A DNA stretch of 64,000 nt, taken from the NCBI RefSeq assembly GCF_030013595.1, contig NZ_CP122768.1; one strand, written 5' to 3'. Positions 471 to 53,367 of this stretch are shown here, one piece after another (the first letter of the stretch is position 1; the number at the start of each line of letters is the position of its first letter). The notes beneath the pieces are model-generated. The model was not told the origin of the DNA. It made no database searches and saw only the letters and a program-made list of their open reading frames with translations. The position numbers and the translations under genes are program-made. The stretch is from Escherichia coli. Lineage in GTDB: Bacteria > Pseudomonadota > Gammaproteobacteria > Enterobacterales > Enterobacteriaceae.

Positions 471-528
471 AAAAACGGCGGCAGAGCAGTCACGGAGTAA
501 AACTGATACCGCCAAACGTCACCAGAAA
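471..528 (-). ncRNA. dicF: DicF small regulatory RNA
   Basis: Reverse complement of 471..528 is UUUCUGGUGACGUUUGGCGGUAUCAGUUUUACUCCGUGACUGCUCUGCCGCCGUUUUU, matching remembered DicF; GC stem plus U-run at 3' end; located between early ORFs and dicB. Confidence 0.75.
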
Positions 529-6103: not shown

Positions 6104-6266
6104 CTTACATCCATCTCCATTAAGAAATCTTGCTATTGTTCTTATGGATCGTCTTTCTGACTGATTTCATATTGGCGAGGTAAAGGTAGTTAAGTAGAAT
6201 GGCTGCGGGTGCTTGAGGCTATCTGCCTCGGGCATGAACACCAAAGGCAGATAGAGAAAAGCCCCA

Positions 6267-8141
6267 GTTAACATTACGCGTCCTGCAAGACGCTTAACAT
6301 TAATCTGAGGCCAATTTCATGCTAGACACATGTAGGTTAGCCTCTTACGTGCCGAAAGGCAAGGAGAAGCAGGCTAGTGTTAACACCAAGCTGTAATGTC
6401 CCCTTTGAACCATTCTAAAATGTCCCCAGACAATTCTCTGGGGGATTTTTCATGATCAAAGAGACTGTTACGATGAGTCATAAGGAACTCCACCGACTTC
6501 AGATTATTCAGGAGTCAATTAATCGACATATTACTCAGGAACAAGCTGCGGCACGCATTGGCATTTCTATTCGGCAGGTTAAACGTCTGGTGCAACGGTA
6601 TAGAAATGAAGGGCCTTCTGGTCTGGTTTCCCACCGACGTGGAAAGCGTCCTAATAATTCCTTTTCTACTGAATTCAGAGCAACAGTAATTTCACTCCTC
6701 AAAGGCCGTTACGCTGATTTTGGACCTACGTTTGCGTGCGAAAAATTGCGCGAGATACACGGTTTATCTTTATCCGTTGAAACTCTCAGAAAGTGGATGA
6801 TAGAAGAGGGGTTATGGCGTGAACGCCGTCGTAAAATTGCCCGTATATATCAACGCCGCATGCGACGACCATCTTACGGTGAACTGATCCAGATTGATGG
6901 CTCACCTCATGACTGGTTTGAAAATCGAGGCCCCAGATGTACACTGATCGTTTTCATTGATGATGCCACCAGTGCGTTGATGGCGTTGCGTTTTGTGCCT
7001 GCTGAAACAACCCGGGCTTACATGGAAACCCTCCGGGGTTACCTTAATGATCATGGCGTACCGCTCGCTCTCTACTCTGATAGACACAGTATATTCAGGG
7101 TAAATAACCCAGAGCGGGAAGGTGAGCTGACCCAGTTCACTCGTGCGATAAAGACACTGGGCATCGAGCCAATCCATGCCAACAGCCCGCAGGCAAAAGG
7201 GCGGGTAGAGCGCGCCAATCAGACACTACAGGACAGGCTGGTCAAAGAAATGCGGCTTCAGAATATCAGTGATATTGAAACAGCAAATGCATGGTTGCCG
7301 ACCTTTATTGAAGCCTATAACAACCGGTTCGCTACGTCGCCTCGTACTACTGATAATGCTCATCTTGATGAGCACCATTCTGAAGAGGAACTGGGTTATA
7401 TCTTCAGCCTACAGGCGAAGCGCGTTCTGTCTAAAAATCTCACTTTCCAGTACAAAAGCAGTGCGTTTCAGGTACGCAGTGAGGGCCGGGGATATCGACT
7501 TAGGCATTCGGTTGTTACTGTATGCGAGAACTTTGACGGTGAAATTAACGTTCTGTATGACGGGAAAGCGCTGGGCTGGGAAAAGTATGTTGATGGCCCG
7601 GAGCCTATACCACTGGATGATGAAAAGAGTGTCCATGAACGAGTGGATAATGCCCGTATTGATTTACGCTCAAAATACTATGTTAAACCTAAAGCTGACC
7701 ATCCCTGGCTTACGCGCCGAACGCAAAGTCATCAGCAAGTTAAGCCCCCGAAGTTACCTAAAAAGAAGCCTGATCCCGATAAAAAAGATTGAAACCAAGA
7801 TCGATTCGGTTGAGTGCATATCCATTCATAGGGTAGATTCTTAAGTCGCGTTTCTGGTGTTCATTTTCGGGTGGTTTGTTACTTGTTTTACCGGGGATAT
7901 GCCAGAAACGCGCTGAGTCAGTCTGGGCGGTGCGCGTAATGAGGCGTTATGGTAAATAGCCTATGCTAATGTCCGCTAAGAGCAAGAAGCGGAAGTTGGC
8001 AGTTTTGTGGACTGTCCCCACAAAAGTGACTACAGAAATAGTTGCAATTCATAATTGATCATGGGTTGTCAGTTAAACTCGTGGCGATTTAAATAGACTA
8101 ATTGGGAGTGCGTCCATTACTTATATCTTGTAATGTTAACT
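6267..8141. mobile_element. Insertion sequence (single-ORF DDE/rve transposase; IS481 or ISNCY-like); boundaries approximate
   Basis: 446-aa transposase ORF; 12-bp inverted match AGTTAACATTAC at 6267..6278 and 8130..8141 proposed as termini; no clear target-site duplication. Confidence 0.45.
6452..7792 (+). CDS. Transposase with N-terminal HTH and integrase-core (DDE) domain
   Basis: 446 aa; HTH (AARIGISIRQVKRLV) and rve-like core (..IQIDGSPHDWF.. ..LYSDRHSIF..); basic lysine-rich C-terminus. Confidence 0.85.
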   Translation: MIKETVTMSHKELHRLQIIQESINRHITQEQAAARIGISIRQVKRLVQRYRNEGPSGLVSHRRGKRPNNSFSTEFRATVISLLKGRYADFGPTFACEKLREIHGLSLSVETLRKWMIEEGLWRERRRKIARIYQRRMRRPSYGELIQIDGSPHDWFENRGPRCTLIVFIDDATSALMALRFVPAETTRAYMETLRGYLNDHGVPLALYSDRHSIFRVNNPEREGELTQFTRAIKTLGIEPIHANSPQAKGRVERANQTLQDRLVKEMRLQNISDIETANAWLPTFIEAYNNRFATSPRTTDNAHLDEHHSEEELGYIFSLQAKRVLSKNLTFQYKSSAFQVRSEGRGYRLRHSVVTVCENFDGEINVLYDGKALGWEKYVDGPEPIPLDDEKSVHERVDNARIDLRSKYYVKPKADHPWLTRRTQSHQQVKPPKLPKKKPDPDKKD

Positions 8142-13111: not shown

Positions 13112-13411
13112 AAAAATTCCTTAATACTGATAACTTGGCGCACTATACACACGTTCCTGAAGAAAGCTATAGTTTTTTGATGGGGTTGAAGATGGCTGGA
13201 TGTCTAAAATAAACATTGCTTCATATGTTCAACTATGCGTTAATGATTGCGTCGGTTTGAAGAACAGACGATATACGAAGTAGTTTACTAAAGCAGTTCT
13301 CATTTCAGGTGTTATTCACTTATTCCTTCTTTGAGTCTCTCCAATTAAGTACGAAGTCGTTTCTGTTATGCAAACCATTTATGCCGAAAGGCTCAAGTTA
13401 AGGAATGTAGA

Positions 13412-13627
13412 ATGTCAAATAAAATGACTGGTTTAGTAAAATGGTTTAACGCTGATAAAGGTTTCGGCTTTATTTCTCCTGTTGATGGTAGTAAAGATGT
13501 GTTTGTGCATTTTTCTGCGATTCAGAATGATAATTATCGAACCTTATTTGAAGGTCAAAAGGTTACCTTCTCTATAGAGAGTGGTGCTAAAGGTCCTGCA
13601 GCAGCAAATGTCATCATTACTGATTAA
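13412..13627 (+). CDS. cspB: Cold shock protein CspB
   Basis: 71 aa [38 protein letters not shown]..., RNP motifs. Confidence 0.9.
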
Positions 13628-13917
13628 AATTCATCGCTCGTCTGTATACGATAACGAAGAAGGCTGATGCCTGAGTAGAGATACGGACAGAGTAGTGAAT
13701 ATTGGATTTCTTTAATAAAAATTAAGGAGGTCCAATACATGAAACAATGGTCAGCATATTTGGCAAAATCTTAATCAGGAAAAGTATGCTAACCATTGTG
13801 GTGAAGTGCAGGTTTGCTGCATGAATAGTTTTACAGCAGAAGCTAACTGCTGGCATGGCAAAACAAAGTGCGTAAGTGGATGACTCCCACAAAAAGCACC
13901 ACAATCTCAAACCCGCT

Positions 13918-15935: not shown

Positions 15936-16296
15936 GGTAATATTAAATCGGAACATTTACATCGCGGAATGTAAAATTTAAATAAAAAGGACTCTTCCAT
16001 GAGCCAAAATTCCTGAAATCTTAAGGGTAAGATAAAAGGTCTTAATCAGAATGACACGTTTTATTAATAAATAAAGCTATTCTTTCATTGCTGTGTTTTT
16101 CTTTACAAAAGTAATCCTTGCTATGGGTGGTTAATCATGCGTTAATGGTGTTCTGGTTTGTTACAAATTTATCTGAAGCAGTCATTGTTATAATTTTATT
16201 ATTTGTACCTCTTGAGATTTCCTTGTTGGTTTTTCTCTCTGATATTTTTTTCGGACCATTCTGCCCAAGGGCTAATTTCTTCAAAAGGTAATAATT

Positions 16297-16509
16297 ATGT
16301 CTAACAAAATGACTGGTTTAGTAAAATGGTTTAACCCTGAAAAAGGTTTTGGTTTCATCACGCCGAAAGATGGCAGCAAAGATGTGTTTGTCCATTTCTC
16401 AGCAATTCAGAGCAACGATTTCAAAACATTAACTGAGAATCAGGAAGTTGAATTTGGTATTGAGAACGGACCTAAAGGTCCTGCCGCTGTTCATGTAGTG
16501 GCGCTTTGA
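16297..16509 (+). CDS. cspI: Cold shock protein CspI
   Basis: 70 aa [43 protein letters not shown]... Confidence 0.9.
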
Positions 16510-16780
16510 GGTAGACAATATTACAAACCATATTCACTTTAGATGCCCGTGTTGTCATGGTTCCCAGTATAGAACATCATCTTTTGATGTTTCTGACATG
16601 AATCCTTTCGGGGCAAAATGTATCTTTTGTAAATCAATGATGATTACATTTGATAATATTTCACAATACTTAAATGCCAGCCGTCTGTCGTTGGATTTAA
16701 AAAAGTGAAAATGAAGGCTCCTTCGGGAGCTTTTTGGCTTGGTGTCTATTCGATGGATACTCACATACTACGGTAACATC

Positions 16781-24541: not shown

Positions 24542-25567
24542 ATGTCGATGTACACAACCGCCCAGCTGCTGGCGGCAAATGAGAAGAAATTTAAGTTTGA
24601 TCCGCTGTTTCTGCGTCTCTTTTTCCGTGAGAGCTATCCCTTCACCACGGAGAAAGTCTATCTCTCACAAATTCCGGGACTGGTAAACATGGCGCTGTAC
24701 GTTTCGCCGATTGTTTCCGGTGAGGTTATCCGCTCCCGTGGCGGCTCCACCTCTGAATTTACACCGGGATATGTCAAGCCGAAGCATGAGGTGAATCCGC
24801 AGATGACCCTGCGTCGCCTGCCGGATGAAGATCCGCAGAATCTGGCGGACCCGGCTTACCGCCGCCGTCGCATCATCATGCAGAACATGCGAGACGAAGA
24901 GCTGGCCATTGCTCAGGTCGAAGAGATGCAGGCAGTTTCTGCTGTGCTTAAGGGCAAATACACCATGACCGGTGAAGCCTTCGATCCGGTTGAGGTGGAT
25001 ATGGGCCGCAGTGCGGCGAACAACATCACACAGTCCGGTGGTACGGAGTGGAGCAAGCGTGACAAGTCCACGTATGACCCGACCGACGATATCGAAGCCT
25101 ATGCGCTGAACGCCAGCGGAGTGGTGAATATCATCGTGTTTGATCCGAAAGGCTGGGCGCTGTTCCGTTCCTTCAAAGCCGTCAGGGAGAAGCTGGATAC
25201 CCGTCGCGGCTCTCATTCCGAGCTGGAGACAGCGGTAAAAGACCTGGGCGAAGCGGTGTCCTATAAGGGGATGTATGGCGATACGGCGATCGTCGTGTAT
25301 TCCGGACAGTACGTGGAAAACGACGTCAAAAAGAACTTCCTTCCGGACAACACGATGGTGCTGGGGAACACTCAGGCACGCGGTCTGCGCACCTATGGCT
25401 GCATTCAGGATGCGGACGCACAGCGCGAAGGTATTAACGCCTCTGCCCGCTACCCGAAAAACTGGGTGACCACCGGCGATCCGGCGCGTGAGTTCACCAT
25501 GATTCAGTCAGCACCGCTGATGCTGCTGGCTGACCCTGATGCGTTCGTGTCCGTACAACTGGCGTAA
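24542..25567 (+). CDS. E: Major capsid protein E
   Basis: 341 aa MSMYTTAQLLAANEKKFKFDPLFLRLFFRESYPFTTEKVYL..., lambda gpE. Confidence 0.95.
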   Translation: MSMYTTAQLLAANEKKFKFDPLFLRLFFRESYPFTTEKVYLSQIPGLVNMALYVSPIVSGEVIRSRGGSTSEFTPGYVKPKHEVNPQMTLRRLPDEDPQNLADPAYRRRRIIMQNMRDEELAIAQVEEMQAVSAVLKGKYTMTGEAFDPVEVDMGRSAANNITQSGGTEWSKRDKSTYDPTDDIEAYALNASGVVNIIVFDPKGWALFRSFKAVREKLDTRRGSHSELETAVKDLGEAVSYKGMYGDTAIVVYSGQYVENDVKKNFLPDNTMVLGNTQARGLRTYGCIQDADAQREGINASARYPKNWVTTGDPAREFTMIQSAPLMLLADPDAFVSVQLA

Positions 25568-25608
25568 TCATGGCCCTTCGGGGCCATTTTCTCTCTGTGG
25601 AGGAGTCC

Positions 25609-26004
25609 ATGACGAAAGATGAACTGATTGCCCGTCTTCAGGTGCTGGGTGAGCAACTGAACCGTGATGTCAGCCTGACGGGGACGAAAGAAGAACTGGT
25701 GCTCCGTGTGGCAGAGCTGGAAGAGGAGCTTGATGACACGGATGACGCTGCCGGTCAGGACACATCTGTCAGCCCGGAAAATGCGCTGACCGGACATGAA
25801 AATGAGGTGGTATCAGCGCAGCCGGATACCGTGACTGATACGGCTGATCTGGTCACGGTTGTGGCACTGGTGACGCTGCATACTGATGCACTTCACGCCA
25901 CGCGGGATGAGGCTGTGGCATTTGTGCTGCCGGGAACGGCGTTCCGTGTCTCTGCCGGTGTGTCAGCTGAAATGACAGAGCGCGGCCTGGCCAGAATGCA
26001 ATAA
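25609..26004 (+). CDS. FI: DNA packaging protein FI
   Basis: MTKDELIARLQVLGEQLNRDVSLTGTKEELVLRVAELEEEL..., lambda gpFI. Confidence 0.85.
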   Translation: MTKDELIARLQVLGEQLNRDVSLTGTKEELVLRVAELEEELDDTDDAAGQDTSVSPENALTGHENEVVSAQPDTVTDTADLVTVVALVTLHTDALHATRDEAVAFVLPGTAFRVSAGVSAEMTERGLARMQ

Positions 26005-26015
26005 CGGGAGGCGCT

Positions 26016-26369
26016 GTGGCTGATTTCGATAACCTGTTCGATGCTGCCATTGCCCGCGCCGATGAAACGATACGCGGGTACATGGGAACGTCAGCCACCA
26101 TGACATCCGGTGAGCAGTCCGGTGCTGTGATACGTGGTGTTTTTGATGACCCTGAAAATATCAGCTATGCCGGACAGGGCGTGCGCGTTGAAGGCTCCAG
26201 CCCGTCCCTGTTTGTCCGGACTGATGATGTGCGGCAGCTGCGGCGCGGCGACACGCTGACCATCGGTGAGGAAAACTTCTGGATAGACCGGATTTCGCCG
26301 GATGATGGCGGAAGCTGTCATCTCTGGCTTGGGCGGGGCGTACCGCCTGCCGTTAACCGTCGCCGCTGA
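26016..26369 (+). CDS. FII: Head-tail connector FII
   Basis: 117 aa MADFDNLFDAAIARADETIRGYMGTSA..., lambda gpFII. Confidence 0.9.
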   Translation: MADFDNLFDAAIARADETIRGYMGTSATMTSGEQSGAVIRGVFDDPENISYAGQGVRVEGSSPSLFVRTDDVRQLRRGDTLTIGEENFWIDRISPDDGGSCHLWLGRGVPPAVNRRR

Positions 26370-26380
26370 AAGGGGGATGT

Positions 26381-26959
26381 ATGGCCATAAAAGGTCTTGA
26401 GCAGGCCGTTGAAAACCTCAGCCGTATCAGCAGAACGGCGGTGCCCGGTGCCGCCGCAATGGCCATTAACCGCGTTGCTTCATCCGCGATATCGCAGTCG
26501 GCGTCACAGGTTGCCCGTGAGACAAAGGTACGCCGGAAACTGGTAAAGGAAAGGGCCAGGCTGAAAAGGGCCACGGTCAAAAATCCGCAGGCCAGAATCA
26601 GGGTTAACCGGGGGGATTTGCCCGTAATAAAGCTGGGTAACGCGCGGATTGTCCTGTCCCGACGCAGGCGTCGTAAAAAGGGGCAGCGTTCAGCCCTGAA
26701 AGGTGGCGGCAGCGTGCTTGTGGTGGGAAACCGTCGTATTCCCGGCGCGTTTATTCAGCAACTGAAAAATGGCCGCTGGCATGTCATGCAGCGTGTGGCC
26801 GGGAAAAATCGTTACCCCATTGATGTGGTGAAAATCCCGATGGCGGTGCCGCTGACCACGGCGTTTAAACAGAATATTGAGCGGATACGGCGTGAGCGTC
26901 TTCCGAAAGAGCTGGGCTATGCGCTGCAGCATCAACTGAGGATGGTAATAAAGCGATGA
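26381..26959 (+). CDS. Z: Tail completion protein Z
   Basis: 192 aa, lambda gpZ-like. Confidence 0.9.
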   Translation: MAIKGLEQAVENLSRISRTAVPGAAAMAINRVASSAISQSASQVARETKVRRKLVKERARLKRATVKNPQARIRVNRGDLPVIKLGNARIVLSRRRRRKKGQRSALKGGGSVLVVGNRRIPGAFIQQLKNGRWHVMQRVAGKNRYPIDVVKIPMAVPLTTAFKQNIERIRRERLPKELGYALQHQLRMVIKR

Positions 26960-37444: not shown

Positions 37445-38044
37445 ATGCGTAAAGTTTGTGCAGCCATTTTGTCCACAGCCATCTGTCTGGCCGTATCCGG
37501 TGCGCCTGCATGGGCGTCTGAGCAGCAGGCCACACTGAGCGCAGGGTATCTTCATGCCCGTACGAACGCTCCCGGCAGCGATAATCTGAACGGGATTAAC
37601 GTGAAATACCGTTATGAGTTTACGGACACGCTGGGGCTGATTACGTCATTCAGTTATGCCAACGCTGAAGATGAGCAAAAAACGCATTACAGCGATACCC
37701 GCTGGCATGAAGATTCCGTGCGTAACCGCTGGTTCAGCGTAATGGCGGGGCCGTCTGTGCGCGTGAATGAATGGTTCAGCGTGTATGCGATGGCGGGTGT
37801 GGCTTACAGCCGTGTGTCGACTTTCTTCGGGGATTATCTCCGCGTAACTGACAACAAGGGGAAAACGCACGATGTGCTGACCGGAAGTGATGACGGTCGC
37901 CACAGCAACACGTCTCTGGCGTGGGGGGCTGGCGTGCAGTTTAACCCGACCGAATCCGTGGCCATTGATATTGCTTATGAAGGCTCCGGCAGTGGTGACT
38001 GGCGCACTGACGGTTTCATCGTGGGTGTCGGTTATAAATTCTGA
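37445..38044 (+). CDS. lom: Outer membrane protein Lom (Ail/Lom family)
   Basis: 199 aa [38 protein letters not shown]..., signal peptide plus beta-barrel. Confidence 0.9.
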
Positions 38045-38102: not shown

Positions 38103-41100
38103 GTGAATATGGCAGTAAAGATTTCAGGTGTACTGAAAGACGGCACAGGAAAACCGGTACAGAACTGCACAATCCAGCTGAAAGCAAAACGTAACAGCAC
38201 CACGGTGGTGGTGAACACGCTGGCCTCAGAAAATCCGGATGAAGCCGGGCGTTACAGCATGGACGTTGAGTACGGTCAGTACAGCGTTATTCTGTTGGTG
38301 GAAGGATTCCCGCCGTCACATGCCGGGACCATCACCGTGTATGAAGACTCCCGACCCGGTACGCTGAATGATTTTCTCGGTGCCATGACGGAGGATGATG
38401 CCCGGCCAGAGGCACTGCGCCGTTTTGAGCTGATGGTGGAAGAGGTGGCGCGTAACGCGTCCGCGGTGGCACAGAACACGGCAGCCGCGAAGAAGTCAGC
38501 CGGCGATGCCGGCACATCAGCCCGTGAGGCGGCAACCCATGCGACTGATGCTGCAGGCTCAGCACGCGCAGCCAGCACGTCAGCCGGACAGGCCGCGTCG
38601 TCGGCTCAGTCAGCGTCTTCCAGCGCAGGAACGGCATCAACAAAGGCCAGTGAAGCATCGAAAAGTGCTGCTGCTGCAGAGTCCTCAAAAAGCGCGGCAG
38701 CTACCAGTGCCAGTGCCGCGAAAACGTCAGAAACGAATGCCGCAGCGTCACAACAATCAGCAGCCACTTCTGCATCCACCGCGACCACGAAAGCGTCAGA
38801 AGCTGCCACCTCAGCCCGGGATGCGGCGGCCTCAAAAGAGGCAGCGAAATCATCAGAAACGAACGCATCCTCGAGCGCCAGTAGCGCAACTTCCTCGGCA
38901 ACGGCGGCAGGAAATTCCGCGAAGGCGGCAAAAACGTCCGAGACGAACGCTAAGTCTTCTGAGACGGCAGCGGGACAGAGCGCCTCAGCTGCGGCAGGCT
39001 CAAAAACAGCGGCTGCATCATCTGCCAGCGCCGCGTCAACAAGTGCCGGGCAGGCCTCAGCCAGTGCCACCGCCGCCGGAAAATCGGCAGAAAGCGCCGC
39101 ATCATCCGCTTCAACAGCCACAACGAAGGCTGGCGAAGCCACTGAACAGGCCAGCGCAGCAGCGAGTTCTGCTTCCGCAGCGAAGACATCCGAAACGAAC
39201 GCGAAAGCGTCGGAAACCAGCGCAGAATCCTCAAAAACGGCTGCCGCATCGTCAGCCAGTTCGGCGGCGTCATCGGCATCATCGGCGTCTGCTTCAAAAG
39301 ATGAGGCGACCAGACAGGCGTCAGCAGCGAAGGGCAGCGCCACGACAGCATCCACGAAGGCGACAGAGGCAGCTGGTAGTGCGACAGCGGCAGCTCAGAG
39401 CAAAAGTACGTCGGAATCTGCAGCAACGCGTGCCGAGACAGCAGCAAAACGGGCAGAGGATATTGCATCTGCCGTGGCGCTTGAGGATGCGAGCACGACG
39501 AAAAAGGGGATAGTACAGCTCAGCAGTGCGACCAACAGTACGTCTGAAACGCTGGCGGCAACGCCAAAGGCAGTAAAATCAGCCTATGACAATGCAGAGA
39601 AACGTCTGCAGAAAGACCAGAACGGCGCTGATATACCCGATAAGGGACGCTTCCTGAACAACATTAACGCGGTCAGTAAAACAGACTTTGCTGATAAGCG
39701 TGGTATGCGTTATGTGCGGGTTAACGCTCCTGCAGGTGCAACATCTGGAAAATATTACCCTGTTGTTGTTATGCGTTCTGCTGGCTCAGTAAGCGAACTG
39801 GCATCAAGGGTCATTATCACCACGGCAACGCGAACCGCAGGCGATCCGATGAATAACTGCGAGTTTAACGGATTTGTTATGCCTGGTGGCTGGACTGACA
39901 GGGGGCGTTATGCTTATGGAATGTTCTGGCAATATCAAAACAATGAACGAGCCATCCACTCAATAATGATGAGTAATAAGGGCGATGATTTGCGCTCTGT
40001 GTTCTATGTTGATGGCGCTGCTTTCCCTGTTTTTGCGTTTATCGAAGATGGCCTGTCAATATCCGCACCTGGTGCTGATCTCGTTGTTAATGATACGACC
40101 TATAAGTTTGGGGCAACAAATCCAGCGACTGAATGTATCGCGGCGGACGTTATCCTTGATTTTAAGAGTGGGCGTGGTTTTTATGAGTCTCATTCGTTAA
40201 TCGTTAACGATAATTTGTCGTGCAAAAAACTTTTTGCCACAGACGAAATTGTAGCGCGTGGTGGTAATCAGATTCGAATGATAGGTGGGGAGTATGGTGC
40301 ATTATGGCGTAATGATGGCGCTAAAACTTACCTGCTGCTTACCAATCAAGGTGATGTTTATGGTGGCTGGAATACATTAAGACCGTTTGCTATTGATAAC
40401 GCAACCGGCGAACTGGTTATTGGAACCAAACTGTCCGCAAGTCTGAACGGTAATGCATTAACAGCAACAAAGCTGCAAACGCCAAGACGGGTTTCTGGTG
40501 TTGAGTTTGATGGTTCCAGAGATATTACTTTAACCGCCGCGCATGTGGCTGCTTTTGCCAGAAGGGCAACGGATACATATGCCGATGCGGATGGTGGCGT
40601 TCCCTGGAATGCCGAATCAGGTGCTTACAATGTCACCCGCTCTGGCGACAGCTATATTCTGGTTAACTTCTATACCGGAGTCGGAAGTTGCCGGACCCTG
40701 CAGATGAAGGCGCATTACAGAAATGGTGGTCTGTTCTACCGTTCTTCAAGAGACGGTTATGGTTTTGAGGAAGACTGGGCAGAAGTTTATACCTCGAAAA
40801 ATCTTCCACCAGAAAGCTACCCAGTCGGCGCACCAATCCCGTGGCCATCAGATACCGTTCCGTCTGGTTATGCCCTGATGCAGGGGCAGACTTTTGACAA
40901 ATCTGCTTACCCGAAACTTGCAGCCGCTTATCCGTCAGGCGTGATCCCTGATATGCGTGGCTGGACGATTAAGGGCAAACCTGCCAGTGGTCGGGCCGTA
41001 TTGTCTCAGGAACAGGACGGCATTAAATCGCATACCCACAGCGCCAGCGCATCCAGTACGGATTTGGGGACGAAAACCACATCGTCGTTTGATTACGGCA

Positions 41101-41459
41101 CTAAATCCACGAATAACACCGGGGCGCATACCCATAGTGTTAGCGGTACGGCTGCTTCAGCCGGTGCACATACCCATTCGATGACATTTGTTTCAGGTGG
41201 TTCCAGTGGTGCTCCGGGAAGTGGAGCATCTGATTATTCTAAATACAGTGTTAACACTTCTTCTGCAGGCGCTCATACGCACTCTGTATCGGGTACTGCT
41301 GCAAGCGCAGGTGCACACGCACATACTGTGGGTATTGGTGCTCATACGCACTCCGTTGCGATTGGTTCACATGGACACACCATCACCGTTAACGCTGCTG
41401 GTAACGCGGAAAACACCGTCAAAAACATCGCATTTAACTATATTGTGAGGCTTGCATAA
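38103..41459 (+). CDS. stf: Side tail fibre protein Stf (long form, 1118 aa)
   Basis: Conserved N-terminus, long Ala/Ser-rich repeat region, C-terminal tip with repeated GAHTHS motifs; followed by tfa. Confidence 0.9.
38650..39450 (+). repeat. Degenerate tandem coding repeats inside stf (unit encodes A-K-T/S-S-E-T-N-A)
   Basis: Repeated gcgaaaacgtcagaaacgaatgc-like units; produces long spurious ORFs in other frames and on the opposite strand. Confidence 0.6.
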
Positions 41460-42034
41460 TGGCATTCAGAATGAGTGAACAACCACGGACCATAAAAATT
41501 TATAATCTGCTGGCCGGAACTAATGAATTTATTGGTGAAGGTGATGCATATATTCCGCCTCATACAGGTCTGCCAGCAAACAGTACCGATATTGCACCGC
41601 CAGATATTCCGGCTGGCTTCGTGGCTGTTTTCAACAGTGATGAGTCATCGTGGCATCTCGTTGAAGATCATCGGGGTAAAATGGTTTATGACGTGGCTTC
41701 CGGCGACGCGTTATTTATTTCTGAACTCGGTCCGTTACCGGAAAATGTTACCTGGTTATCGCCGGAAGGGGAGTTTCAGAAGTGGAACGGTACAGTCTGG
41801 GTGAAGGATACGGAAGCAGAAAAACTGTTCCGGATCCGGGAGGCGGAAGAAACAAAAAACAGCCTGATGCAGGTAGCCAGTGAGCATATAGCGCCACTTC
41901 AGGATGCTGTAGATCTGGAAATCGCAACGGAGGAAGAAACCTCATTGCTGGAAGCCTGGAAAAAGTATCGGGTGTTGCTGAACCGTGTTGATACATCAAC
42001 TGCACAGGATATTGAATGGCCAGCACTGCCGTAG
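41459..42034 (+). CDS. tfa: Tail fibre assembly protein Tfa
   Basis: 191 aa [42 protein letters not shown]...; start overlaps stf stop. Confidence 0.85.
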
Positions 42035-42131
42035 GGTAAAACATATAAATTCTATAATTAGATGTATCTTTCCATTTACGGCAAGGAAGGGGGCTTGGAA
42101 GACGTAAAGCATCTCACACCGAGATTATTTT

Positions 42132-42722
42132 TTATATGTCAGGTGTCTGAAGTTTTGCTTTGGCTCTTAAAATGGTTTGCCGCGAGGTTTTGAATTCCCG
42201 GGCAATGGCACTTATACTTACACCTGACTTAATTCGTTCGAATACCACCTGTTTCTGTTCTTCATTTAACACAGGTGGTCGACCAAAACGTTTCCCTGCG
42301 CCGCGGGCTCTTACTATCCCGGAATGAGTGCGTTCAAGTAAAAGGTCTCGTTCAAATTCAGCGACTGCTGAAATTACGTGCATCATCATTTTTCCTGTTG
42401 GACTGGTCAGGTCAATGCCCCCCAATGCTAAGCAATGCACTCTGATACCTGTTTCGGTCAGTTGTTCCACTGTTTTCCTGATATCCATTGCATTACAACC
42501 AAGGCGATCCAGTTTTGTCACAATCAATTGATCACCACATTTCAGGCGAGCAAGCAACCGGTTAAAACCAGGACGCTCACTGGTTGCTGCTGAGCCGCTA
42601 ATGTGTTCTTCGATTATTTGCTGAGGTTTGATTTTAAAACCTGCACTTTCGATTTCCCGGCGTTGATTTTCGGTGGTCTGATCCAGCGTTGATATCCGAC
42701 AGTAAGCAAAAATTCGAGACAT
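42132..42722 (-). CDS. pinQ: Serine recombinase / DNA invertase PinQ-like
   Basis: 196 aa [29 protein letters not shown]...; catalytic Ser region plus C-terminal HTH. Confidence 0.85.
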
Positions 42723-43038
42723 AGTGAGACTCTATACGAAATTGGTGTTCATATCATAATGCATCTCAGAAAATAATTTTGATTATTTTTGTGCATATTT
42801 GTATGTACACGTTCGAAAATAAACGAATGCGTATGCAACCCCGTAATTTTGGTGAGACCCAAAATCGATTTTGTGAAAAATGGCTTTAACTCGGTTTGTT
42901 TTTCGAGTTCCGGGCAGACTCAAGGAAGAAGAATAGTGTTGCGTGTTATTTTAACCAGATTTCAATTTGTTTGGTCGTGGAAAAGTGGAGCAAAATGTTG
43001 TTAAAGTGGAAAAATGATAAAAAAGTAAGTTTGTTATA

Positions 43039-43272
43039 TTACATTTTACCATTTAAATTTTGGTTGTCTTTAAGAACTGATATCGCTGTTTGTAATAATT
43101 CTTTGTTATCCAGCCATGATTTTTTCTTTATGTTTCCTTCAATGTAATCAAGCAATGTTCTGGTATTGATAGGTCTTCCCTGTTTTGCTACTTCCACTAC
43201 AGCATCCCCTAGGATAATTCTTACTTCAGGAAGCTGCGCAGGGAACCACTTTAGGGTGTCTTTTGATTTCAT
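43039..43272 (-). CDS. ydfK: YdfK-like small prophage protein (77 aa)
   Basis: MKSKDTLKWFPAQLPEVRIILGDAVVEVAKQGRPINTRTLLDYIEG...; AAGGAA before ATG. Confidence 0.7.
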   Translation of the reverse strand: MKSKDTLKWFPAQLPEVRIILGDAVVEVAKQGRPINTRTLLDYIEGNIKKKSWLDNKELLQTAISVLKDNQNLNGKM

Positions 43273-44056
43273 GAAGATATTCCTTAAAATATTATTGATT
43301 TTCATTGCGATATTGTATGTCTGATTCAGGATATGTTGACTTATACATCGGTTTTGTCTGGGTTATTGGATATGCCAATCCCTAATTTTATTAGGGCATG
43401 ACTAAAAATGCTGAATATGATAAGGAGAGAAGTGATTATCAGTATGCTGTTCATATAGCCTCGAATTAGTAATGTGTTATATATGATATAGTTGACAATT
43501 TTTATCTTGGGTGTTCTTAAAGTTCGTAGATAAACATTGTCGTTTCAGGTATACAGGAATGCTAACAGGTGGCGGCAAAAATCAGGCGGTTTATGGCGCA
43601 ATCTGAAGTGGCAACTGCAAACTATCTTATGCAGAGACTCTACACGGATTGGGTTTAAAAGTATACATAGATAACAATTTTTATCTGAAGAAGAAAAATA
43701 TCAAGGTGATATAGCCTATATGCCTTTGATGCGGAGGAATGAATGTGATGGGAGTGATGTATCTGAATAGTTGAAAAACCGCAGACACGCCTTATGCAAG
43801 AACGTGCTGCGGTTGGCTGGTAAATTTTTCGATAGTGCGAGTATTGAATGATTTCCAGCCGTTATTGATTTTACGCGTAAATCCATGAAAAAACTACTTA
43901 TCTGTTGGGGAGTTTTTTGGGGCATATATGGGACAGAAATAGGCCCCAGATAGACACTGAGATCGAACTTAGGATGCTTTTAAAAAAATGCAACTATCTG
44001 AAAAAACCTAGAAAACGCCAAGGAAACCACAGGATGGGAAAAAACACCTGTGAATT

Positions 44057-52927: not shown

Positions 52928-53367
52928 GCTCCGTTTAACATTCATTGAGAAAACTGATGCTACTGTGTCAACGATCCGTTATCAGTGCAGGAAAATGCCT
53001 GTTAGCGTAAAAGCAAAACACAAATCTATCCATGCAAGCATTCACCGCCGGTTTACTGGCGGTTTTTTTTCGCCGTCATAAAAATCAGGCCCCTTGTACA
53101 CAGTTGTAACAAGGGGCCGGTTAGGTGAGGGATTATCTCCGTTCATTAGTCATCCCATTTGTGGCTGAAATACGCGGCCAGAAAACCAGAAAATAAAATT
53201 ATTCCCAGTACGGCCATAAAAACATTCATATTACCCAGCATTATTTGCCTCCGTTTATGGTGTGGTGTGTTTCCTCGCTTACCTTAATTTTCATCTCAAT
53301 GAGAAAGATATTAGCAGAGGTAACCTAAACGAAGGCTGAATTAAATTTTTATTGTGTTCGACTTAAA

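What the first reader, a model, noticed from the sequence alone, without database searches (positions are those of the whole stretch)
41025..41400. His-x-His repeat motifs in the Stf tip
The C-terminal tip contains [20 protein letters not shown] twice, plus SHTHS, GAHAHT and GSHGHT. Established: HxH repeats coordinate metal ions in the T4 gp37 fibre tip. Inference: this tip may adopt a similar metal-stabilised needle fold.
Basis: partly seen in the sequence, partly recalled or inferred. Interest (0 to 1): 0.35.

Follow-up and report, generated by a model that had tools for sequence, protein, structure and literature searches.

The report
Known iron-binding phage tail-fibre tip
The His-x-His repeats are real, and they sit in a prophage side tail fibre whose last 215 residues are about 70% identical to the crystallised, iron-stapled receptor-binding needle of phage T4 gp37, so this is a textbook feature.

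Summary
The 1118-aa Stf ORF (window 38103-41459, +) carries seven H-x-H motifs between nt 41031 and 41378. These hold 14 of the protein's 20 histidines; composition-preserving shuffles give 0.3-1.4 motifs, and at most 2 of 20,000 reach seven.

One detail is wrong. The quoted 20-mer occurs once. What occurs twice is the 17-mer [17 protein letters not shown], and the second copy continues AHT.

The last 215 residues align end to end with PDB 2XGF, the T4 gp37 receptor-binding tip, at E = 8e-90 and 71-73% identity. All seven motifs fall in the same register: spacings are 32,14,35,14,9,9 here and 32,14,37,14,9,9 in T4.

In T4 each motif triplet coordinates one of seven iron ions along the trimer axis. 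The next gene is a Tfa chaperone 95% identical to lambda Tfa. The locus is a lambdoid prophage at the E. coli Qin site (J-lom-stf-tfa-pinQ).

Across 201 distinct tips of this family, five of the seven motifs are at least 98.5% conserved, while the loop between motifs 3 and 4 is hypervariable.

Structure prediction added little: a single chain gave a confident collar and a weak needle, and a linker-joined trimer failed. Metal content and receptor remain untested. The feature is already known and of low interest.

The parts
38103..41459 (+). stf: side tail fibre gene, 1118 aa (RefSeq start at 38109)
   Evidence: ORF. Pfam hits: phage_tail_N (aa 3-136), Gp34_trimer (aa 665-764), Collar (aa 909-956) and Phage_fiber. 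Annotated as an intact 'prophage tail fiber N-terminal domain-containing protein' in a 100%-identical E. coli genome.
38109..38510 (+). N-terminal lambda-Stf-type domain (PF08400), which attaches the fibre to the tail
   Evidence: Pfam E = 9.2e-72. The attachment role is taken from the Ur-lambda structure paper.
40095..40394 (+). Domain like the gp34 C-terminal trimerisation domain (PF21446)
   Evidence: Pfam E = 3.4e-27.
40542..40829 (+). Domain similar to phage Mu tail fibre S (aa 814-909)
   Evidence: phmmer against PDB 8ju3_A residues 321-415, E = 2e-21.
40812..41456 (+). Homologue of the T4 gp37 receptor-binding tip (collar + needle + head), aa 904-1118
   Evidence: 2xgf_A E = 8.3e-90 over the full length. 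71-73% identity. Foldseek top hit 2xgf_A at E = 1.4e-17. tblastn gives T4 70% and lambda Stf 68%.
40827..40970 (+). Phage tail collar domain (PF07484)
   Evidence: Pfam E = 7.5e-12. AF2 pLDDT 82-93. Foldseek hits to the gp12 collar.
41031..41039 (+). HxH motif 1 (H977/H979), aligned to T4 H883/H885
   Evidence: Both columns are 100% His in 202 aligned tips.
41127..41135 (+). HxH motif 2 (H1009/H1011), aligned to T4 H915/H917
   Evidence: 98.5% His.
41169..41177 (+). HxH motif 3 (H1023/H1025), aligned to T4 H929/H931; last site before the head
   Evidence: About 66% His in the family alignment, where it borders the variable head. T4 H929/H931 are essential.
41178..41273 (+). Head loop, aa 1026-1057 (32 residues, Gly/Ser-rich); hypervariable and presumed to contact the receptor
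   Evidence: Column identity is mostly below 30% across 202 tips. It differs from the T4 and lambda heads. The T4 head carries the residues critical for receptor binding.
41274..41282 (+). HxH motif 4 (H1058/H1060), aligned to T4 H966/H968
   Evidence: About 83% His.
41316..41324 (+). HxH motif 5 (H1072/H1074), aligned to T4 H980/H982
   Evidence: 99.5% His.
41343..41351 (+). HxH motif 6 (H1081/H1083), aligned to T4 H989/H991
   Evidence: 99.5-100% His.
41370..41378 (+). HxH motif 7 (H1090/H1092), aligned to T4 H998/H1000
   Evidence: 100% His.
41459..42034 (+). tfa: tail fibre assembly chaperone; its ATG overlaps the stf TAA (TAATG)
   Evidence: Pfam Caudo_TAP E = 1.1e-43. 95% identical to lambda Tfa. 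Sequence read.

Best explanation
The region encodes the C-terminal receptor-binding tip of a lambda-type side tail fibre (Stf) of a lambdoid prophage at the E. coli Qin site. The tip is a direct homologue of the collar-needle-head tip of T4 gp37.

Proposed mechanism, by homology:
- Three chains run up the needle carrying motifs 1-3, form the small distal head (aa 1026-1057), and run back down carrying motifs 4-7.
- At each of seven levels on the three-fold axis, the HxH motifs of the three chains supply six imidazoles that coordinate one metal ion octahedrally. The metal is Fe(II) in T4.
- These sites staple together a thin, Gly/Ala/Ser/Thr-rich fibre that has almost no hydrophobic core.
- Folding and trimerisation need the Tfa chaperone encoded immediately downstream.
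- The hypervariable head loop supplies receptor specificity. The HxH scaffold is the conserved frame on which heads are exchanged.

Shown here: the motifs, their statistical significance, the full-length homology and shared register with 2XGF, the family-wide conservation, and the adjacent chaperone. Inferred: trimer formation, metal binding and metal identity in this protein, and its receptor.
For: - Seven HxH motifs, against about 0.3-1.4 expected.
- Full-length alignment to 2XGF_A at E = 8.3e-90 with all 14 His aligned. HxH spacings are 32,14,35,14,9,9 here and 32,14,37,14,9,9 in T4.
- Pfam Collar and Phage_fiber domains.
- 2xgf_A is the only significant Foldseek hit (E = 1.4e-17).
- In 201 distinct tips plus the query (202 aligned rows), motifs 1, 2, 5, 6 and 7 are 98.5-100% His, and the head is below 30% identical. 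2072 cluster representatives match at E <= 1e-3, as do 644 phage records including T4 (70%) and lambda Stf (68%).
- Tfa is 95% identical to lambda Tfa.
- The two 17-aa repeat copies are identical in protein but differ at 17 of 51 nt, so selection acts on the peptide.
Against: No direct evidence that this protein binds metal, or which metal. AF2 on a single chain gave only pLDDT 50-70 for the needle and TM 0.39 to 2xgf_A. A linker-joined pseudo-trimer failed (pLDDT 32.5). The predicted structure therefore does not independently confirm a trimeric needle. Motifs 3 and 4 are absent from about a third and about a sixth of aligned family members, so not every site is obligatory. Whether this prophage still makes fibres is unknown.
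Confidence: 0.9

Rival explanations
1. The HxH 'boxes' persist mainly as conserved DNA or peptide linkers that let homologous recombination shuffle tip modules (a recombination-hotspot role), not because they bind metal.
For: The family is clearly modular. HxH number per tip ranges from 4 to 10. Extra ascending D[LY]G.K-type units go with extra descending HxH units in 176 of 193 tips. A 92%-identical scaffold (P0013) carries an unrelated head, while a 78%-identical scaffold (P0077) carries a closely related one. Short DNA repeats of 70-90% identity do exist at the motifs (family D1).
Against: The 17-aa duplicate is identical in protein but differs at 17 of 51 nt, which is poor substrate for recombination and points to protein-level selection. 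The His residues themselves are about 100% conserved. They coordinate Fe in the T4 crystal and are essential there. At best this is a secondary consequence, not an alternative function.
Confidence: 0.08
2. The fold is the gp37-type needle, but the sites hold a different metal (for example Zn(II), as I recall for the single His site of the T4 gp12 short tail fibre), or are partly empty.
For: Sequence cannot tell which metal is bound. The collar domain is shared with gp12-type short fibres (9cuy E = 3.4e-9; 1ocy and 5iv5 in Foldseek). Zn in gp12 is from my own knowledge and was not tested here.
Against: At about 70% identity, with all ligand residues and their neighbours (G-x-H-x-H-S/T) conserved, the same metal as T4 is the simplest expectation. 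Other HxH sites on fibre or spike axes are reported with Fe (R-pyocin fibres and the P2 spike apex: paper abstracts and titles listed).
Confidence: 0.1
3. The gene is an inert remnant of a cryptic prophage. The motifs reflect ancestry only, and no fibre is assembled in this host.
For: The locus is at the Qin site (pinQ, ydfK, ynfT, truncated ydfJ), where E. coli K-12 carries a defective prophage (my own knowledge). The adjacent pin invertase has no detectable target sites.
Against: stf (1118 aa) and tfa are intact and translationally coupled. The window carries long ORFs across the structural-gene stretch upstream of stf. The matching genome annotates the series from portal to J, lom, stf and tfa, although there an IS4 transposase sits among the head genes. 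Matching sequence occurs in 5256 of 5426 complete E. coli genomes, and most best matches are 90-99% identical. This reading would not change what the motifs do in the protein.
Confidence: 0.2

Closest known systems
Phage T4 gp37 long-tail-fibre receptor-binding tip (PDB 2XGF)
   Same: Residues 904-1118 align with gp37 811-1026 at 71-73% identity. It has the same collar, seven HxH motifs in the same register, and an identical C-terminal ...[16 protein letters not shown].
   Different: The head loop between motifs 3 and 4 is two residues shorter and mostly unrelated in sequence, so the receptor may differ. The rest of the protein is lambda-Stf-like, not gp37-like. The chaperone is lambda-type Tfa rather than gp38.
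Ur-lambda side tail fibre Stf plus Tfa
   Same: It has the same N-terminal PF08400 domain, the same J-lom-stf-tfa gene order, a gp37-type tip (68-77% identity) and a Tfa 95% identical.
   Different: Lambda's tip has eight HxH motifs, with one extra SFDYGTK unit on the way up and one extra GAHxH unit on the way down, and a longer, unrelated head. This Stf is 1118 aa long, with a long Ala/Ser-rich shaft plus gp34-like and Mu-S-like domains.
T4 gp12-type short tail fibre
   Same: It shares the Phage Tail Collar domain (PF07484; 9cuy E = 3.4e-9; Foldseek 1ocy and 5iv5, about 60 aligned residues).
   Different: Only the collar matches. There is no multi-site HxH needle, so this protein is not a member.
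HxH-iron sites in other fibres and spikes (R-type pyocin fibres, P2 gpV apex)
   Same: The same chemical principle applies: HxH from three chains forms an octahedral metal site on the trimer axis (literature listed).
   Different: No sequence homology was detected here. Those proteins have one or a few sites, not a stack of seven.

Membership tests
T4 gp37 / lambda Stf receptor-binding tip family (2XGF-type collar-needle-head) | C-terminal region of about 215 aa homologous over its full length to gp37 811-1026 | tested here: met
   phmmer E = 8.3e-90, query 104-318 against chain 27-242. 71-73% identity.
T4 gp37 / lambda Stf receptor-binding tip family (2XGF-type collar-needle-head) | Repeated HxH motifs in conserved register (three ascending, four descending in T4) | tested here: met
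   Seven motifs. Spacings are 32,14,35,14,9,9 here and 32,14,37,14,9,9 in T4. All are aligned.
T4 gp37 / lambda Stf receptor-binding tip family (2XGF-type collar-needle-head) | Phage tail collar domain preceding the needle | tested here: met
   PF07484 E = 7.5e-12 at aa 909-956. AF2 pLDDT 82-93.
T4 gp37 / lambda Stf receptor-binding tip family (2XGF-type collar-needle-head) | Dedicated assembly chaperone gene immediately downstream (gp38 or Tfa) | tested here: met
   tfa at 41459-42034, PF02413 E = 1.1e-43. 95% identical to lambda Tfa. TAATG overlap with stf.
T4 gp37 / lambda Stf receptor-binding tip family (2XGF-type collar-needle-head) | Intertwined homotrimeric needle fold | tested here: inconclusive
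   Single-chain AF2 gave needle pLDDT 50-70, with 2xgf_A as top Foldseek hit but TM only 0.39. The linker-joined trimer model failed at pLDDT 32.5. No multimer predictor was available.
T4 gp37 / lambda Stf receptor-binding tip family (2XGF-type collar-needle-head) | Metal ions (Fe) octahedrally bound by the HxH triplets | not testable with these tools
   This needs metal analysis or a structure. It is established for T4 only.
Lambda-type side tail fibre (Stf) | N-terminal PF08400 domain and position after J and lom in a lambdoid tail operon | tested here: met
   PF08400 E = 9.2e-72. Order gpJ, Ail/Lom, stf, tfa in the identical genome; lom at 37445-38044.
Invertible tail-fibre segments (Mu G, P1 C, e14 P; Gin/Cin/Pin systems) | Inverted crossover sites flanking alternative fibre C-termini next to the invertase | tested here: not met
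   A serine invertase is present at 42132-42722 (-). No suitably placed inverted repeat was found in 40000-43600. No AAACCNNGGTTT-like core lies near stf, tfa or pin. There is no second, inverted tip or tfa copy.

The most novel reading that the evidence does not exclude
The short, Gly/Ser-rich 32-residue head (aa 1026-1057), framed by a T4-length seven-site needle, may specify a receptor other than the OmpC/LPS sites used by T4 and lambda. A related head appears on a more divergent eight-HxH scaffold (P0077), while a 92%-identical scaffold (P0013) has an unrelated head. This suggests the head moves as an exchangeable cassette between HxH boxes. If so, it would be a defined new specificity module for engineering T4 or lambda fibres. 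A more speculative reading is that the fibre's iron is used as bait for siderophore receptors (the 'Ferrojan horse' idea). Nothing here supports that reading.
Probability: 0.3. Interest if true: 0.2.

Novelty: already known. Interest (0 to 1): 0.08.

Why it matters
This is useful mainly as annotation. It identifies the gene as a gp37-type, Tfa-dependent receptor-binding fibre and marks aa 1026-1057 as the segment likely to determine specificity. Tips like this are raw material for retargeting lambda- or T4-based delivery particles. It does not open any question that the T4 gp37 structure and the lambda Stf literature have not already addressed.

Tried and rejected
1. AF2 on the 215-aa tip with a 69-sequence alignment. 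The collar was confident and the needle was not (mean pLDDT 67.5, pTM 0.35). Foldseek still gave 2xgf_A as the only significant hit, but at TM 0.39. A single chain cannot represent an intertwined trimer.
2. A pseudo-trimer made of three copies joined by 25-residue GGS linkers, with a 7-row alignment. It failed (pLDDT 32.5, pTM 0.19) and is uninformative.
3. A search for an invertible segment that would explain the adjacent invertase. No flanking inverted repeats and no crossover-core matches near the locus. Rejected.
4. Tandem Repeats Finder on stf returned nothing. The protein-level repeats are too diverged at the DNA level.
5. The primary T4 structure paper (Bartual 2010, PMC2996694) is not held in the library, so its content is cited second-hand through PMC6957217, PMC9659904 and PMC11705849.
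6. A literature search for 'His box' with 'tail fiber' and 'gp37' found no papers.
7. The overlapping ORFs on other frames and on the minus strand within 40935-41448 were treated as by-products of the stf reading frame, because the stf frame is the one with deep homology.

Full report
**Observation.** Window 38103-41459 (+) is a 1118-aa ORF. Translated in that frame, it has seven H-x-H motifs:

| Motif | Sequence | First His (aa) | Window nt |
|---|---|---|---|
| 1 | KSHTHS | 977 | 41031-41039 |
| 2 | GAHTHS | 1009 | 41127-41135 |
| 3 | GAHTHS | 1023 | 41169-41177 |
| 4 | GAHTHS | 1058 | 41274-41282 |
| 5 | GAHAHT | 1072 | 41316-41324 |
| 6 | GAHTHS | 1081 | 41343-41351 |
| 7 | GSHGHT | 1090 | 41370-41378 |

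All lie inside the reported interval. Fourteen of the protein's 20 histidines are in these motifs. Residue shuffles give 0.34 motifs for the whole protein, 0.85 for the last 215 aa and 1.43 for aa 975-1100. Seven was reached in 0, 0 and 2 of 20,000 shuffles.

The true exact duplicate is the 17-mer [17 protein letters not shown] at aa 1007-1023 and 1056-1072.

**What the gene is.** Pfam finds four domains in the protein:
- the lambda-type 'Prophage tail fibre N-terminal' domain, aa 3-136, E = 9e-72;
- a gp34-type trimerisation domain, aa 665-764;
- the Phage Tail Collar domain, aa 909-956;
- the Phage tail fibre repeat.

The neighbours are an Ail/Lom gene upstream (37445-38044), a Caudo_TAP tail-fibre assembly gene downstream (41459-42034) whose ATG overlaps the stf stop as TAATG, and a serine invertase on the minus strand (42132-42722).

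The 1.6 kb around the tip is 100% identical to E. coli STEC17-190. There it sits in the order portal ... gpJ, lom, tail fibre, tfaQ, pinQ, ydfK, ynfT, ydfJ, which is a lambdoid prophage at the Qin site. Related sequence is present in 5256 of 5426 complete E. coli genomes, with a median of 3 places per genome.

**Decisive comparison.** A phmmer search of all PDB chains with the last 318 residues gives 2XGF_A (T4 long tail fibre protein gp37, receptor-binding tip) at E = 8.3e-90. It covers query residues 104-318 against chain 27-242, from the collar to the last residue. Identity is 71-73%.

All seven HxH motifs align with T4 H883/885, 915/917, 929/931, 966/968, 980/982, 989/991 and 998/1000. The spacing between successive motifs is 32,14,35,14,9,9 here and 32,14,37,14,9,9 in T4. 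The only difference is a head loop two residues shorter.

Residues 814-909 also resemble the phage Mu fibre S (8ju3, E = 2e-21), so the protein is a mosaic.

**What is established for T4.** The held literature supports the following:
[quoted passage not shown]' [quoted passage not shown]
- The HxH-iron coordination comes from X-ray crystallography, and HxH motifs are reported as conserved in coliphage lambda (PMC11705849).
[quoted passage not shown] T4 gp37' and binds OmpC (PMC12617516).
- A T4/lambda receptor-binding family defined by this 215-aa tip plus its adjacent chaperone has been described, and lambda Tfa can replace gp38 (PMC9659904).

The Tfa here is 95% identical to lambda Tfa.

**Family view.** The tip matches 2072 cluster representatives at E <= 1e-3, 261 of them at E <= 1e-30. 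It also matches 644 phage records, including T4 (70%), lambda Stf (68%) and Gifsy-2 (58%).

In an alignment of 201 distinct tips plus the query (202 rows), the His columns of motifs 1, 2, 5, 6 and 7 are 98.5-100% His. Motifs 3 and 4, which border the head, are about 66% and about 83% His. Residues of about aa 1026-1050 are below 30% identical. The number of HxH per tip ranges from 4 to 10, with a mode of 7 (110 of 201).

Needle length varies in a paired way. The number of D[LY]G.K-type units between motifs 1 and 2 equals (descending HxH minus ascending HxH plus 1) in 176 of 193 tips. Lambda, for example, has one extra SFDYGTK unit and one extra GAHxH unit.

Heads appear to be exchanged independently of scaffolds. 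P0013 is 92% identical overall but has an unrelated head. P0077 is 78% identical and has eight HxH, yet its head is closely related to this one.

**Structure prediction.**
- AF2 on one chain with 69 aligned sequences modelled the collar well (pLDDT 82-93) and the needle poorly (50-70).
- Foldseek against the PDB returned 2xgf_A as the only significant hit (E = 1.4e-17, TM 0.39), followed by gp12 collar fragments.
- A pseudo-trimer of three copies joined by GGS linkers failed (pLDDT 32.5).

These tools cannot model the homotrimer. About 70% identity to a crystal structure is stronger evidence than either model.

**Mechanism.**
- Three chains ascend with motifs 1-3, form the head, and descend with motifs 4-7.
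- At each of seven axial levels, three HxH motifs supply six imidazoles to one octahedral metal ion, which is Fe(II) in T4.
- These sites hold together a fibre made mostly of small residues.
- Tfa chaperones the assembly.
- The head loop contacts the receptor.

The motifs, homology, register, conservation and chaperone are shown here. Trimer formation, metal occupancy, metal identity and the receptor are inferred.

**Rival explanations.**
- A purely recombinational 'box' role is unlikely. The two 17-aa copies are identical in protein yet differ at 17 of 51 nt, including three Ser AGY/TCN codon switches.
- A different metal cannot be excluded from sequence.
- The prophage may be cryptic, but stf and tfa are intact.
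- The invertase has no detectable target sites, so this is not a Mu- or e14-type switching fibre.

**Verdict.** The feature is already known and of low interest. The only open item is the receptor specificity of this head variant.

Noticed in passing
window 41121-41171 and 41268-41318: The ascending and descending copies of [17 protein letters not shown] are identical in protein but differ at 17 of 51 nt (12 of 17 codons), all synonymous, including three Ser AGY/TCN switches. Twenty of the 202 aligned tips carry the same exact double copy. Possible reasons are strong peptide-level constraint, or selection against a recombinogenic direct DNA repeat that would delete the head.
   Followed up: partly
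family of tips (P0001-P0260), compared with window 40812-41456: Needle length varies in paired modules. The count of D[LY]G.K-type units between HxH 1 and 2 equals (descending minus ascending HxH plus 1) in 176 of 193 tips. HxH number ranges from 4 to 10 and head loops from about 30 to 55 residues.
   Followed up: partly
window 42132-42722 (-): A Pin-type serine invertase (pinQ in the matching genome) sits directly after tfa. No flanking inverted repeats, no crossover-site core and no alternative inverted tip or tfa copy were found, so it appears to be an orphan invertase.
   Followed up: yes
window 41802-42000 (+): An Rfam IS009 match (226 bits, full length) lies entirely inside the tfa coding sequence. 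Whether it is a real RNA or just conserved coding sequence was not examined.
   Followed up: no
window 38400-39600, both strands: The Ala/Ser/Thr-rich shaft of Stf (aa ~110-500, with recurring KTSETNA/SAAxSA-like stretches) produces long spurious ORFs in other frames: 38506-39513 (+), 335 aa, and 38606-39355 (-), 249 aa. Tandem Repeats Finder sees no DNA-level array.
   Followed up: partly
window 40095-40829: Stf is a mosaic. A gp34-type trimerisation domain (aa 665-764) and a Mu-S-like domain (aa 814-909; 8ju3 E = 2e-21) precede the gp37-type tip.
   Followed up: partly
window 476-527 (-), 6207-6373 (+), 13251-13643 (+), 16152-16536 (+), 52939-53152 (+): Other Rfam hits in the window are DicF sRNA, a sok antitoxin RNA, two cspA-type thermoregulator leaders and STnc560. 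DicF agrees with a Qin-type prophage (my own knowledge of E. coli K-12); STnc560 lies in the chromosomal genes beyond pinQ.
   Followed up: no
L001 3700-5028, compared with window ~25567-26381: The otherwise matching prophage in E. coli STEC17-190 has an IS4 transposase between the major capsid gene and FI. The corresponding gap in the window (about 0.8 kb) seems too short to hold it, so the window probably comes from a different strain.
   Followed up: no
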